64,000 nucleotides of DNA from Candidatus Saccharimonadota bacterium (lineage in GTDB: Bacteria > Patescibacteriota > Saccharimonadia > Saccharimonadales > Saccharimonadaceae). The stretch is from contig JAFQYG010000003.1 in assembly GCA_017406565.1 (NCBI GenBank), positions 65,431 through 129,430 of the forward strand. Direction: 5' to 3'. Positions within the stretch are counted from its first letter, which is position 1, and the number at the start of each line of letters is the position of its first letter. Below the pieces are notes generated by a model, which saw only the letters and a program-made list of their open reading frames with translations, had not been told where the DNA came from and ran no database searches. Shown here piece after piece: positions 38,537 to 40,232 of the stretch. The position numbers and the translations under genes are program-made.

Positions 38537-38602
38537 GACTATCCCCTCCAACCGGAGGGGCATTTTTTGCGAAAAATGCAAAAATATAGTATAATATCAA
38601 AC

Positions 38603-39361
38603 ATGATTAAGTTTACTATTATCACTCTGTTCCAAGAGGCTCTGAAGCCTTATTTAGAGTCCTCAATGATGTACAAGGCTGCTCATAAAGGTCTTGTGGA
38701 GTTTAATTTTGTAGACTTACGCGAATTTGGTCTTGGCCCTCACAAATCTGTCGATGATACGCCTTACGGTGGTGGTGATGGGATGTTACTTAGATGCGAA
38801 CCAGTTTTTAATGCTATCGAATCGGTAAAAAAGAAAGATTCTAAGGCCAAAGTCATCCTTCCTACTCCTGTGGGTGATATCTGGAACCAAGATATGGCTA
38901 GAAAGTTTGCGAATGGGCAAGCAGAATCTTTTTCGAGGAGCATATTTTCCGACGTGGAAAATACGGAACGACCGAGCCCCTTAGGCGAGGGTGCGAGGGA
39001 GCGTTCCGAGAAAAACGATTCTTCTTGCCACTATGTAATCCTCTGCCCTCATTATGAGGGGTACGATGAACGTATCTTAAGCATTGTAGACTATAAAGTA
39101 TCCCTGGGTAAATATGTTCTTACTGGCGGCGAATTGCCAGCTCTTATCATCATTGATTCGGTTGTTCGCTTAATACCAGGGGTGCTTGGTGGCGAAAACT
39201 CAGCTGCGATTGAAAGCTTTTCTGATGGAGATAATTTAGAGTATCCTCAGTACACCAAACCATATGATTTTCGCGGCATGACAGTGCCAGACGTGCTACT
39301 CTCTGGTAATCATGGCGAAATCGCTAAATGGCGCAAACAACACTCCGGCAAAGCAAAATAA
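38603..39361 (+). CDS. trmD: tRNA (guanine37-N1)-methyltransferase with in-frame insertion
   Basis: VDDTPYGGGDGM, CPHYEGYDER, SLGKYVLTGGELPA, VPDVLLSGNH motifs; start moved to MIKF. Confidence 0.97.
   Translation: MIKFTIITLFQEALKPYLESSMMYKAAHKGLVEFNFVDLREFGLGPHKSVDDTPYGGGDGMLLRCEPVFNAIESVKKKDSKAKVILPTPVGDIWNQDMARKFANGQAESFSRSIFSDVENTERPSPLGEGARERSEKNDSSCHYVILCPHYEGYDERILSIVDYKVSLGKYVLTGGELPALIIIDSVVRLIPGVLGGENSAAIESFSDGDNLEYPQYTKPYDFRGMTVPDVLLSGNHGEIAKWRKQHSGKAK
38917..39028 (+). repeat. Palindromic in-frame insertion element in trmD (type A, sense)
   Basis: 78-nt core 38933-39010 TCGAGGAGCATATTTTCCGACGTGGAAAAT...GAGCGTTCCGAG; arms GCAAG.AGAATC.TTTT / AAAAA.GATTCT.CTTGC. Confidence 0.92.
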
Positions 39362-39363
39362 AC

Positions 39364-39505
39364 CAGTAAAAGACGGCCTTTCGACCGTCTTTTCGCTGTT
39401 ACGCGCCCACCCTTGGGGCACATTGTTTTGTTTTAATCCGCTGTTTGTTTTTATGAGTCTCCACACTCCACCTTTCAGTGGAACCCCTGTGAAGCGTACC
39501 AGCTT
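39364..39505 (-). ncRNA. Candidate novel structured small RNA (~140 nt)
   Basis: TTGACA (39535-40)-17-TATTAT (39512-17) promoter; 5' GCTGGTACGC pairs with GCGTAACAGC; two GAAA-tetraloop hairpins; A-rich linker; ends in terminator 39368-39393. Confidence 0.65.
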
Positions 39506-39594
39506 ATAAATATAATAAAGCATAAGCGTGGGACTGTCAAGCGATTTCTGGCACAAAATTTGACAAAATTGTAAAAAATGACTTTTCCACAGAA

Positions 39595-39619
39595 AAATCC
39601 CTGGCGAGGCCAGGGATTT
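39595..39619 (-). terminator. Terminator of 39619..40122
   Basis: AAATCCCTGGC-GAG-GCCAGGGATTT. Confidence 0.8.
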
Positions 39620-40122
39620 CAGAATACCCCCTCATTCTGATAATCCGGATGCACGTAGTAATATTTATTCAGATTGAGGTTGTTACCGTTTTGTAAATCC
39701 CAAAGAAGAATTGCCGTACATAGATTAAACTGATCACTGTTTAAAAAATATGTTTCACCAGTATCGGTTTTTATTCTGAATATGTCTCTCGGGAAACGGT
39801 TTGTACGTGGCTCACCGTGGGTAAGCCTTGTCACAGATGTAATATATGATGTAACAACAGGGTCACCGTTGCGATGCCCATGGCATCCATACATTTTACC
39901 ACCTAATTTCATCTTACCACGAAGCTGAATTTCTATCAGATTAGGATGGCTCCAAAAATGATAAAAATCTCTAATCGCTGTTTCGCGGTTATCGATCCCA
40001 TCATCTTCCATAAAAAGTGGCAACCATTCGACTAACTGTCTAGTCTCATCAGCATAAAGTTTATTCGGAATTTTCCAACTCGGACGAGCATGATTTCCGC
40101 CCCTTCCATTCGTAGTTCTCAT
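39619..40122 (-). CDS. Hypothetical solo protein
   Basis: ORF with SD GAAAGGGGGTG, upstream TTGACT/TGCTATAAT promoter and own terminator. Confidence 0.7.
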   Translation of the reverse strand: MRTTNGRGGNHARPSWKIPNKLYADETRQLVEWLPLFMEDDGIDNRETAIRDFYHFWSHPNLIEIQLRGKMKLGGKMYGCHGHRNGDPVVTSYITSVTRLTHGEPRTNRFPRDIFRIKTDTGETYFLNSDQFNLCTAILLWDLQNGNNLNLNKYYYVHPDYQNEGVF

Positions 40123-40232
40123 TTGACTCACCCCCTTTCGTTCCACGTATCGATCTTAAAGTACTTGTCTAGAAGACGCTATATCCTCATATTATAGCAC
40201 AAACTTTATAAAAAGTCAATATTATGCTTTAA

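What the first reader, a model, noticed from the sequence alone, without database searches (positions are those of the whole stretch)
39364..39505. Candidate novel small RNA convergent with trmD
A near-consensus sigma70 promoter (TTGACA-17-TATTAT) points into a 140-nt region with no credible ORF that ends in a terminator. The predicted 5' end immediately forms a 10-bp closing stem (GCTGGTACGC/GCGTAACAGC, one G.A mismatch) enclosing a GAAA-capped hairpin (TTCCACT-GAAA-GGTGGAG), an unpaired A/C-rich tract (AAAAACAAACAGCGGATTAAAACAAAACAA) and GCCC...GGGC. The terminator also has a GAAA loop. I do not recognise it as SRP, 6S, tmRNA, RNase P or a riboswitch. Its proximity to a palindromic element is notable, but any link is speculation.
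Basis: partly seen in the sequence, partly recalled or inferred. Interest (0 to 1): 0.65.

Follow-up and report, generated by a model that had tools for sequence, protein, structure and literature searches.

The report
Conserved pseudoknotted small RNA of Saccharibacteria
The flagged stretch is a real, separately transcribed gene for a folded RNA of about 110-140 bases. Nearly all Saccharibacteria of this order keep it as a single copy, it matches no described RNA family, and its function is still unknown.

Summary
On the minus strand there is a TTGACA-17-TATTAT promoter, a ~110-nt structured core (39505-39395) and a terminator shared with trmD.

The unit occurs once per genome in 167 of 169 genomes sampled from its own family. 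It also occurs in 80 genomes from many other families of the order, with one weak hit outside the order. Rfam 15 has no match.

Comparative analysis corrects the fold. The closing stem P1 and a hairpin P2 are real. The P2 loop or bulge (GGGG here) pairs with the segment just 5' of an invariant GGGUGGGC, which makes a pseudoknot with very strong covariation. A 25-75-nt A/C-rich linker spans it. The GAAA loop and the proposed GCCC/GGGC hairpin are not conserved.

It is not an SRP RNA, because the genome has no Ffh/FtsY-type GTPase. tmRNA and RNase P RNA lie elsewhere. It is not 6S-shaped, not coding, and not a leader of a fixed gene.

Rumen metatranscriptome contigs cover only this unit and several end at the predicted start.

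Function is inferred only. GGGUGGGC is exactly complementary to the invariant loop UGCCCACCC in the terminator hairpin of a second order-wide ~320-nt orphan RNA. I favour RNA-RNA docking over protein binding, at modest confidence.

The parts
39535..39540 (-). -35 hexamer TTGACA
   Evidence: TTGAC(A/G/T) is kept at the same distance in 31 same-genus genomes. TTG-type -35 boxes are present in most distant homologues.
39512..39517 (-). -10 hexamer TATTAT, 17-nt spacer
   Evidence: A TAnnAT box is conserved 6-8 nt upstream of the RNA 5' end in relatives.
39395..39505 (-). Conserved structured RNA core (about 110 nt), from the predicted start AAGCUGG to the end of P1
   Evidence: Model R1 scores 123 bits and model R2 68.6 bits on it. 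Metatranscriptome contigs span 39393/39395-39503/39505, and several end at 39503 or 39505.
39494..39503 (-). P1 5' strand GCUGGUACGC
   Evidence: It pairs with 39395-39404. In 78 sequences, 7 of 9 pairs change on both sides and 0 of 500 shuffles reach the observed score.
39459..39494 (-). P2 hairpin. P2a is CUUCACA/UGUGGAG. P2b is UUCCACU-GAAA-GGUGGAG, a genus-specific extension. The bulge GGGG lies at 39484-39487.
   Evidence: P2b shows compensatory changes (CCGCU/CGG in G019, CCAUUAG/CUAGUGG in G022). In distant homologues P2 is a short stem that covaries, for example CUCC/GGAG, CGCU/GGCG, UACGCAA/UUGCGUA, UAAC/GUUA.
39484..39487 (-). Pseudoknot 5' strand GGGG(U)
   Evidence: It pairs with CCCC at 39415-39418. 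The GGGG>AGGG change goes with CCCC>CCCU in four genomes. There are 25 different helix sequences among 78 homologues.
39420..39458 (-). A/C-rich single-stranded linker (ACUCAUAAAAACAAACAGCGGAUUAAAACAAAACAAUGU)
   Evidence: Linkers in 78 homologues are 25-75 nt long, with 55% A, 20% C and 9% G. They carry the recurring blocks RAAAAYAAACA and AAAACAAA.
39415..39419 (-). Pseudoknot 3' strand (G)CCCC
39405..39412 (-). Invariant unpaired strand GGGUGGGC between the pseudoknot and P1
   Evidence: Identical in 76 of 78 homologues. Exactly complementary to the invariant loop GCCCACCC of the second orphan RNA.
39395..39404 (-). P1 3' strand GCGUAACAGC
39364..39393 (.). Intrinsic terminator hairpin with GAAA loop and U-tract. 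It works in both directions and also ends trmD on the + strand.
   Evidence: Relatives have hairpins of unrelated sequence plus a U-run at the same place.

Best explanation
SHOWN. This is an independent gene for a structured non-coding RNA. It is transcribed from its own sigma70-type promoter and ended by an intrinsic terminator, with a core of about 110 nt and about 140 nt including the terminator. It belongs to an undescribed RNA family that is specific to one order of Saccharibacteria and present as one copy per genome.

The fold has four parts:
- a 10-bp closing stem P1 formed by the two ends;
- a hairpin P2 whose loop or bulge pairs with a downstream segment (hairpin-loop-outside pseudoknot);
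- a long A/C-rich strand bridging the pseudoknot;
- an invariant unpaired GGGUGGGC between the pseudoknot and P1.

In many members the lower part of P2 (UGCGC/GCGCA) and the inner part of P1 (UGCGC/GCGCA at the 3' end) exclude each other, so two conformers are possible.

INFERRED. The RNA acts in trans. P1 and the pseudoknot form a rigid frame that presents GGGUGGGC to a conserved partner. My preferred partner is the invariant loop UGCCCACCC of the terminator hairpin of a second order-wide orphan RNA. That RNA is about 320 nt and lies at contig C3, about 5445-5125, minus strand, outside the window. The two would form an 8-9-bp G/C-rich loop-strand duplex, 11 bp in this genome. That duplex could compete with the big RNA's own internal GGGGUGGG strand for the same loop.
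For: Gene status:
- The promoter and terminator are conserved while the terminator sequence changes.
- It is single copy in 33 of 36 same-genus genomes.
- R2 finds it in 167 of 169 genomes of its own family and in 80 other genomes of the order.
- Short rumen metatranscriptome contigs lie only on 39393-39505, with zero depth on the flanks in run X4, and several end at 39503/39505.
- RNA-seq contigs of a cultured relative hold the homologue and stop about 53 nt after its P1.

Structure:
- P1: 7 of 9 pairs have double-sided changes and 0 of 500 shuffles reach the score.
- Pseudoknot: 25 helix types, including GGGGU/GCCCC, GGCUCUU/AAGAGCC, GCGGCG/CGCCGC, GAGGCU/AGCCUC and GGGUUCA/UGAACCC. The pseudoknot was not part of model R2, so this test is independent of the model.
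- P2 covaries.
- Own-genus counts: 95.6% of cells are paired.

Partner:
- GGGUGGGC is invariant in 76 of 78.
- The big RNA's 3' hairpin is found in 260 of 301 genomes of the order. Its loop GCCCACCC is invariant in 50 of 50 aligned genomes over covarying stems.
- It is also present in genomes first scored as negative.
- In the own genome, the only GCCCACCC site found in a hairpin loop is that terminator.
Against: - No direct evidence of RNA-RNA contact.
- Both motifs are invariant, so covariation between them cannot be seen.
- The two small-RNA variants (GGGUGAGC in G052, AGGUGGGC in G049) are not compensated in the big-RNA loops of those genomes.
- The loop stays invariant in families where R2 finds no small RNA (f23, f46, f68). 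The big RNA has its own GGGGUGGG partner for it. Loop conservation therefore does not need the small RNA.
- I found the complementarity by following an earlier AI note. My rough estimate for such a match arising by chance is about 1 in 100, and it is post hoc.
- The flanks of the duplex do not covary.
- The long A/C-rich strand has no role in this model.
Confidence: 0.4

Rival explanations
1. Protein-binding RNA (RNP core, decoy or sponge). The invariant GGGUGGGC strand and/or the A/C-rich tract are binding sites for a conserved protein. The related GGGUGGG strands in the big RNA bind the same factor.
For: - Conservation runs along the whole length, as in RNP RNAs, rather than in a short seed.
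- It is single copy and almost universal in the family.
- Abundance in metatranscriptomes is high relative to the flanks.
- GGGUGGG recurs in the big RNA as GAGGUGGGUCACGC and CGGGUGGGUUGAAGGG.
- The A/C-rich, G-poor 25-75-nt strand is otherwise unexplained.
Against: - No conserved neighbouring protein gene. The flanks vary: ligA, a Mur ligase, obg, trmD, recG and unknowns.
- The RRM protein gene that sits next to the RNA in 5 loci is absent from the own genome.
- No candidate partner was identified.
Confidence: 0.3
2. Base-pairing regulatory sRNA. The unstructured A/C-rich tract (AAAACAAACA...AAAACAAA) is the seed and pairs with G/U-rich stretches of mRNAs. The pseudoknot and P1 only stabilise the RNA.
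For: - Stand-alone promoter and terminator.
- An accessible single strand with conserved blocks in all lineages.
Against: - The paired parts and GGGUGGGC are better conserved than the tract. The tract varies in length (25-75 nt) and in its middle sequence.
- No targets were identified.
- Many genes in these genomes seem to be leaderless, which leaves no 5' UTR to target.
- Presence of Hfq was not tested.
Confidence: 0.12
3. Ligand-sensing aptamer (riboswitch-like). The pseudoknot plus the invariant junction form a pocket. The P1-inner versus P2-lower alternative is the switch. In some lineages it would control the gene behind it.
For: - Helices covary while the junction is invariant, which is the usual aptamer pattern.
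- Two mutually exclusive helices are both kept.
- In three to four lineages (L044, L055, L063) an ORF starts 10-13 nt after P1 without a terminator.
Against: - In this genome the RNA runs into the end of the convergent trmD.
- In the genus, the downstream gene has its own TGnTATAAT promoter placed 6-7 nt before its ATG, after the terminator.
- Downstream genes differ between lineages.
- The terminator stem does not overlap P1, so there is no expression platform.
- No Rfam riboswitch match.
Confidence: 0.08
4. A 6S-like RNA that binds RNA polymerase holoenzyme. No 6S RNA is detectable in this genome, which is why the idea arises.
For: - RF00013 finds nothing in the genome, so the 6S role is unfilled.
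- The RNA is abundant and has a large unpaired region enclosed by helices.
Against: - The size is 76-127 nt, against about 180 nt for 6S.
- It is not a rod with a central bubble. The unpaired strand is one-sided and sits inside a pseudoknot.
- No CM match.
Confidence: 0.04
5. A divergent SRP (4.5S) RNA, or a small protein gene.
For: - RF00169 is absent from the genome and from 60 relatives. The size and the paired ends resemble 4.5S RNA.
- An 86-aa ORF (39556-39296) and a 37-aa ORF overlap the unit.
Against: - There is no SRP54-type GTPase (Ffh or FtsY) in the genome by HMM or by motif.
- The apical loop is variable and there is no GNRA plus symmetric-loop motif.
- Length differences between relatives are not multiples of three, and the ORFs run through the terminator.
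Confidence: 0.01

Closest known systems
Orphan lineage-specific structured ncRNAs found by comparative genomics (for example the raiA motif RNA, ROOL, OLE)
   Same: - Stand-alone gene with strong covariation.
- Invariant junction nucleotides.
- Restricted to one lineage.
- No known function at discovery.
   Different: - It matches none of them in Rfam 15.
- It is much smaller (76-127 nt).
- It is confined to one order of Saccharibacteria.
Hairpin-loop-outside (H-type) pseudoknot aptamers such as the preQ1-II/III and SAM-II riboswitches (comparison from my own knowledge)
   Same: - A hairpin loop pairs with a downstream strand.
- An A-rich strand crosses the pseudoknot.
- Conserved junction nucleotides.
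   Different: - Not placed in front of a constant gene and no expression platform.
- The linker is far longer (25-75 nt).
- No CM match.
6S RNA (RF00013)
   Same: An abundant, stand-alone, housekeeping-type small RNA with paired ends and a large unpaired region.
   Different: Wrong size and shape, and no CM match.
Bacterial small SRP RNA (RF00169)
   Same: About 100 nt, ends paired, one copy per genome.
   Different: - No domain IV motif.
- No Ffh or FtsY in the genome.
- No CM match.
Loop-strand or kissing RNA-RNA pairs such as RNA I/RNA II of ColE1 or CopA/CopT of plasmid R1 (comparison from my own knowledge). This is what I think it may work like.
   Same: A short G/C-rich complementarity between a hairpin loop of one RNA and an exposed strand of another, both encoded separately.
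   Different: - Here both RNAs are chromosomal, trans-encoded and order-wide.
- No contact has been shown.
- No replication or antisense context.

Membership tests
Bacterial small SRP RNA (RF00169) | Match to the Rfam covariance model | tested here: not met
   No hit on the locus at E <= 10, none in the whole genome, and none above cut-off in 60 relatives.
Bacterial small SRP RNA (RF00169) | Conserved domain IV: GNRA tetraloop closing a short stem, next to symmetric and asymmetric internal loops | tested here: not met
   The apical loop is 4-12 nt and variable in the genus, and the hairpin is replaced by a short pseudoknotted stem in other families.
Bacterial small SRP RNA (RF00169) | Partner protein Ffh (SRP54 GTPase with M domain) encoded in the genome | tested here: not met
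   PF00448 finds nothing in six frames, while 14 of 14 control genomes are positive. No ORF carries the DT[AS]GR motif, and no P-loop ORF carries D[TS][AS]G.
6S RNA (RF00013) | Match to the Rfam covariance model | tested here: not met
6S RNA (RF00013) | A rod of about 180 nt with a large central bubble flanked by a closing stem and a terminal stem | tested here: not met
   The core is 76-127 nt, with a pseudoknot and a one-sided A/C-rich strand.
6S RNA (RF00013) | Binds sigma70-RNA polymerase and templates product RNAs | not testable with these tools
   Needs biochemistry.
Riboswitch / cis-regulatory leader | Sits in the 5' UTR of a recurrent gene or gene class | tested here: not met
   It is convergent with trmD here. 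Downstream genes differ between lineages, and in the genus they have their own promoter after the terminator.
Riboswitch / cis-regulatory leader | Expression platform (terminator or SD-sequestering helix) that overlaps the aptamer | tested here: not met
   The terminator stems start 2-6 nt after P1 and share no nucleotides with it. A few lineages lack a terminator, so the result is not uniform.
Riboswitch / cis-regulatory leader | Binds a small-molecule ligand | not testable with these tools
   Needs in-line probing or ITC.
tmRNA / RNase P RNA | This locus is the genome's copy of the family | tested here: not met
   tmRNA is at C6:122637-122988 (95 bits). RNase P RNA is at C6:118884-119218 (238 bits).
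New family: Saccharimonadales pseudoknotted small RNA (this report) | P1 closing stem, P2 with loop-to-downstream pseudoknot, A/C-rich linker, and invariant GGGUGGGC before the P1 3' strand | tested here: met
   All 78 aligned homologues show these parts. GGGUGGGC is exact in 76 of 78. The window copy scores 123 bits with R1 and 68.6 bits with R2.

The most novel reading that the evidence does not exclude
Saccharibacteria of this order carry a dedicated two-RNA system. The small pseudoknotted RNA docks with its invariant GGGUGGGC on the invariant UGCCCACCC loop of the terminator hairpin of a second, universal ~320-nt orphan RNA. It displaces that RNA's own internal GGGGUGGG strand and so switches its conformation or activity. 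This would be a chromosomal, housekeeping-level RNA-RNA switch with no described counterpart, in bacteria that, at least in this genome, have lost the whole SRP system.
Probability: 0.2. Interest if true: 0.8.

Novelty: new variant of a known kind. Interest (0 to 1): 0.62.

Why it matters
Saccharibacteria (TM7) are ultra-small epibionts with genomes of 0.6-1.1 Mb in which almost everything dispensable has been lost. An RNA that stays single copy, nearly invariant and highly expressed across a whole order is therefore likely to do something central. Yet it is absent from Rfam and from the papers I could search.

It adds a well-defined new family, with a covariation-backed pseudoknot, to the very short list of non-coding RNAs known in the candidate phyla radiation.

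Its perfect complementarity to the invariant loop of a second orphan RNA gives a concrete hypothesis. That hypothesis can be tested in the cultured, genetically tractable members.

Tried and rejected
1. SRP RNA. This looked attractive because RF00169 is missing from the genome and from 60 relatives. I rejected it because there is no SRP54-type GTPase and no domain IV motif.

2. 6S RNA. No CM hit and the wrong architecture.

3. Coding ORFs (86 aa and 37 aa). Indels between relatives are not in threes and the ORFs cross the terminator.

4. Comparative data replace them with the pseudoknot.

5. An alternative 'extended rod' fold (UUCAC with GUGGG). Distant homologues, in which P2 covaries, do not support it.

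6. Complementarity to the palindromic element inserted in trmD. It is no better than shuffled sequences. Full-length duplexfold against the big RNA was also uninformative.

7. RRM protein as partner. Its gene is adjacent in 5 loci but absent from the own genome.

8. Compensatory-change test between the small-RNA variants and the big-RNA loops in G052 and G049. The loops are unchanged, so the test is uninformative.

9. Phage copies. The small-RNA pattern gives only two weak 62-nt R2 hits (25.8 bits) in viral contigs. Of the first 80 viral hits to the loop 14-mer, only 1 is a matching hairpin.

10. RNA-seq contigs of a cultured relative show presence and a 3' end but no 5' end, because the contigs merge with upstream genes.

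11. MAFFT could not align the pseudoknot columns across families. I therefore scored the pseudoknot with my own script rather than with the count of structure pairs.

Full report
**What is there**

On the minus strand of the gap between trmD (+, stop at 39361) and a 175-aa ORF (-, 40146-39619, with its own terminator at about 39618-39590) lies a complete transcription unit.
- Promoter: TTGACA (39540-39535), a 17-nt spacer, then TATTAT (39517-39512).
- Predicted start: AAGCUGG at 39505.
- Core: about 110 nt, ending at 39395.
- Terminator: hairpin at 39393-39368 with a U-run. It is bidirectional and also ends trmD.

The Pfam scan confirmed trmD, obg and recG around the unit and gave nothing for the 175-aa ORF. 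Rfam 15 finds only two tRNAs in the window at gathering thresholds. On the locus it finds nothing meaningful even at E <= 10.

**Is it more than chance?**

A single promoter-like site and a single-sequence fold (z = -4.3) are weak evidence. Conservation decides the question.
- BLASTN finds the unit once per genome in 33 of 36 same-genus genomes.
- In 31 full-length copies, the -35 and -10 boxes and the core are kept. The terminator is a hairpin of different sequence each time.
- Length differences of 1-2 nt in loops rule out the overlapping ORFs.
- A model built from the genus (R1) finds one hit per genome in other genera and families.
- A second model (R2) was built from 29 diverse hits with only P1 as structure. 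It finds exactly one copy in 248 of 401 genomes sampled from the class. That is 167 of 169 genomes from its own family, 80 genomes from many other families of the order, and one weak hit outside the order.
- A pattern scan of 185,579 species genomes returns mostly records named Candidatus Saccharibacteria, Saccharimonadales, Nanosynbacter, Nanosyncoccus or TM7 oral taxon 348. The hits in other phyla look like chance matches of the short pattern.

**Expression**

Rumen and gut metatranscriptome assemblies hold relatives of the RNA.
- In runs X3 and X4, short contigs (48-93 nt) lie only on 39393-39505, with summed depth up to about 130. Depth is zero on the flanks in X4 and close to zero in X3.
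- Several contigs end exactly at 39503 or 39505, the predicted start, and at 39393-39402.
- These are contigs of related strains, not reads of this strain, so they support but do not prove the transcript ends.
- RNA-seq contigs from cultures of a related genus contain the homologue and stop about 53 nt after its P1, consistent with its terminator.

**Structure**

Within the genus the structure P1 + P2a + P2b + pseudoknot is 95.6% paired, and no shuffle reaches its covariation score. The pseudoknot first showed up as GGGG>AGGG going together with CCCC>CCCU.

In 78 diverse homologues every sequence has the same plan:
- a 5' strand AGCUnGUGCGC;
- a short P2 stem;
- a 5-10-nt loop segment that is perfectly complementary to the segment lying 0-3 nt before GGGUGGGC;
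- an A/C-rich linker;
- GGGUGGGC;
- the 3' strand GCGCAnnAGC.

The supporting counts are as follows.
- The loop-downstream helix exists in 25 sequence versions, including GGGGU/GCCCC, GGCUCUU/AAGAGCC, GCGGCG/CGCCGC, GAGGCU/AGCCUC, GGGUUCA/UGAACCC and GGCCC/GGGCC. The helix was not in model R2, so this is an unbiased test.
- P1 has double-sided changes at 7 of 9 pairs, and 0 of 500 shuffles reach the score.
- P2 covaries too (CUCC/GGAG, CGCU/GGCG, UACGCAA/UUGCGUA, UAAC/GUUA, GCAAAA/UUUUGC).
- In many members the lower P2 pairs use the same UGCGC that forms the inner P1 pairs. The P2 3' strand and the 3' end both read GCGCA (or GCGUA when the 5' strand is UACGC). Two exclusive conformers are therefore both maintained.
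- The long P2b hairpin with the GAAA loop is an expansion specific to this genus and a few relatives. Its loop is variable.
- GGGUGGGC is identical in 76 of 78 sequences. Linkers are 25-75 nt, with 55% A and 20% C.

**What it is not**

*SRP RNA.* This was my first suspicion, because RF00169 is missing from the genome and from 60 relatives. One weak hit in G038 lies inside an ORF. However, the genome (97% complete) has no SRP54-type GTPase at all, by HMM over six frames or by motif. The RNA also lacks the domain IV motif.

*tmRNA and RNase P RNA.* Both are present elsewhere. ARAGORN missed the tmRNA.

*6S RNA.* RF00013 gives nothing, and the shape is not a 6S rod.

*A leader of a fixed gene.* The neighbours vary: ligA upstream in 14 loci, with a Mur ligase or unknown genes downstream, and obg, trmD or recG in the own genus. 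In the genus, the gene behind the terminator has its own TGnTATAAT box 6-7 nt before the ATG, which suggests a leaderless mRNA. A few lineages lack a terminator and have an ORF 10-13 nt after P1, so a cis role there cannot be excluded.

*A partner of the palindromic element.* The element inserted in trmD shows no special complementarity.

**Function**

Nothing here shows function, so what follows is inference. The pattern of covarying helices framing an invariant unpaired strand suggests that GGGUGGGC is the recognition element.

- In the own genome the complement GCCCACCC occurs 8 times, about the chance number. Only one of these sites sits in a hairpin loop.
- That loop belongs to the terminator of a second promoter-to-terminator unit at C3:~5445-5125 (minus strand, outside the window). 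This unit is about 320 nt long and has no Rfam match.
- Its 3' domain is conserved across families.
- A model of the hairpin (R3) hits 260 of 301 genomes of the order.
- The loop GCCCACCC is invariant in 50 of 50 aligned copies over strongly covarying stems.
- Genomes scored negative at first have the hairpin behind an inserted stem.
- The two invariant strands would form 8 Watson-Crick pairs plus a G.U. In this genome the duplex is 11 bp (AAGGGUGGGCG with UGCCCACCCUU).

There are limits to this inference.
- Both strands are invariant, so no covariation between them can be seen.
- The two small-RNA variants are not compensated.
- The loop stays invariant where no small RNA is detected.
- The big RNA has its own GGGGUGGG strand that can pair with the loop.
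- I therefore give docking, possibly in competition with that internal pairing, about 0.2-0.3. A protein partner is about equally likely.
- The RRM protein gene next to the RNA in five loci is not in this genome.

**Novelty**

There is no Rfam family and no paper in the searchable library. Other agents of this scan reached the same 'conserved unknown small RNA' reading on other genomes.

It is a new RNA family of a familiar general kind, a stand-alone structured bacterial ncRNA. It has an unusually clear pseudoknot, an order-wide distribution, and a concrete partner hypothesis.

Noticed in passing
Whole genome G000 (not a window feature): The genome (97% complete) has no SRP54-type GTPase (neither Ffh nor FtsY) and no SRP RNA. 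RF00169 is also absent above cut-off from all 60 sampled relatives of the order. SRP is regarded as nearly universal, so an order-wide loss would be remarkable.
   Followed up: partly
G000 contig C3:~5125-5445, minus strand (about 60 kb before the window start; locus L135): This is a second orphan RNA gene of about 320 nt with a TTGACA...TGTGCTATAAT promoter and no Rfam match. Its terminator-hairpin loop GAUGCCCACCCUU is invariant, and the hairpin is found in 260 of 301 genomes of the order. The RNA also contains GAGGUGGGU and, in most families, GGGGUGGGUUGAAGGG, which can pair with its own loop.
   Followed up: partly
window 39364-39393: A single hairpin serves as a bidirectional terminator for trmD (+) and the small RNA (-).
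   Followed up: yes
Loci L002, L003, L005, L006, L007, L010, L016, L018, just 3' of the RNA terminator: Downstream genes in relatives start 6-9 nt (6-7 nt in seven of the eight loci) after an extended -10 box (TGnTATAAT) with no Shine-Dalgarno sequence, which suggests leaderless mRNAs.
   Followed up: no
window 38567-39361 (trmD): The Pfam match to tRNA_m1G_MT comes in two stretches.
   Followed up: no
window 39619-40146 (-): The 175-aa ORF directly upstream of the RNA has no Pfam match. In same-genus relatives its position is taken by non-homologous ORFs of similar size, so this is a variable slot.
   Followed up: no
50 nt upstream of the RNA in 78 homologues (window 39519-39526 = GCTTATGC): The 7-mer CATAAGC or its complement GCTTATG lies in or near the promoter spacer in 24 of 78 homologues, against about 0.007 expected per 50 nt. 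It may be a regulator site, or it may partly reflect -10-like TATGCT boxes.
   Followed up: partly
Loci L038, L041, L045, L051, L053: A small RRM-type RNA-binding protein gene lies divergently about 150-200 nt upstream of the RNA in five genomes. It is absent from the own genome by tblastn.
   Followed up: yes
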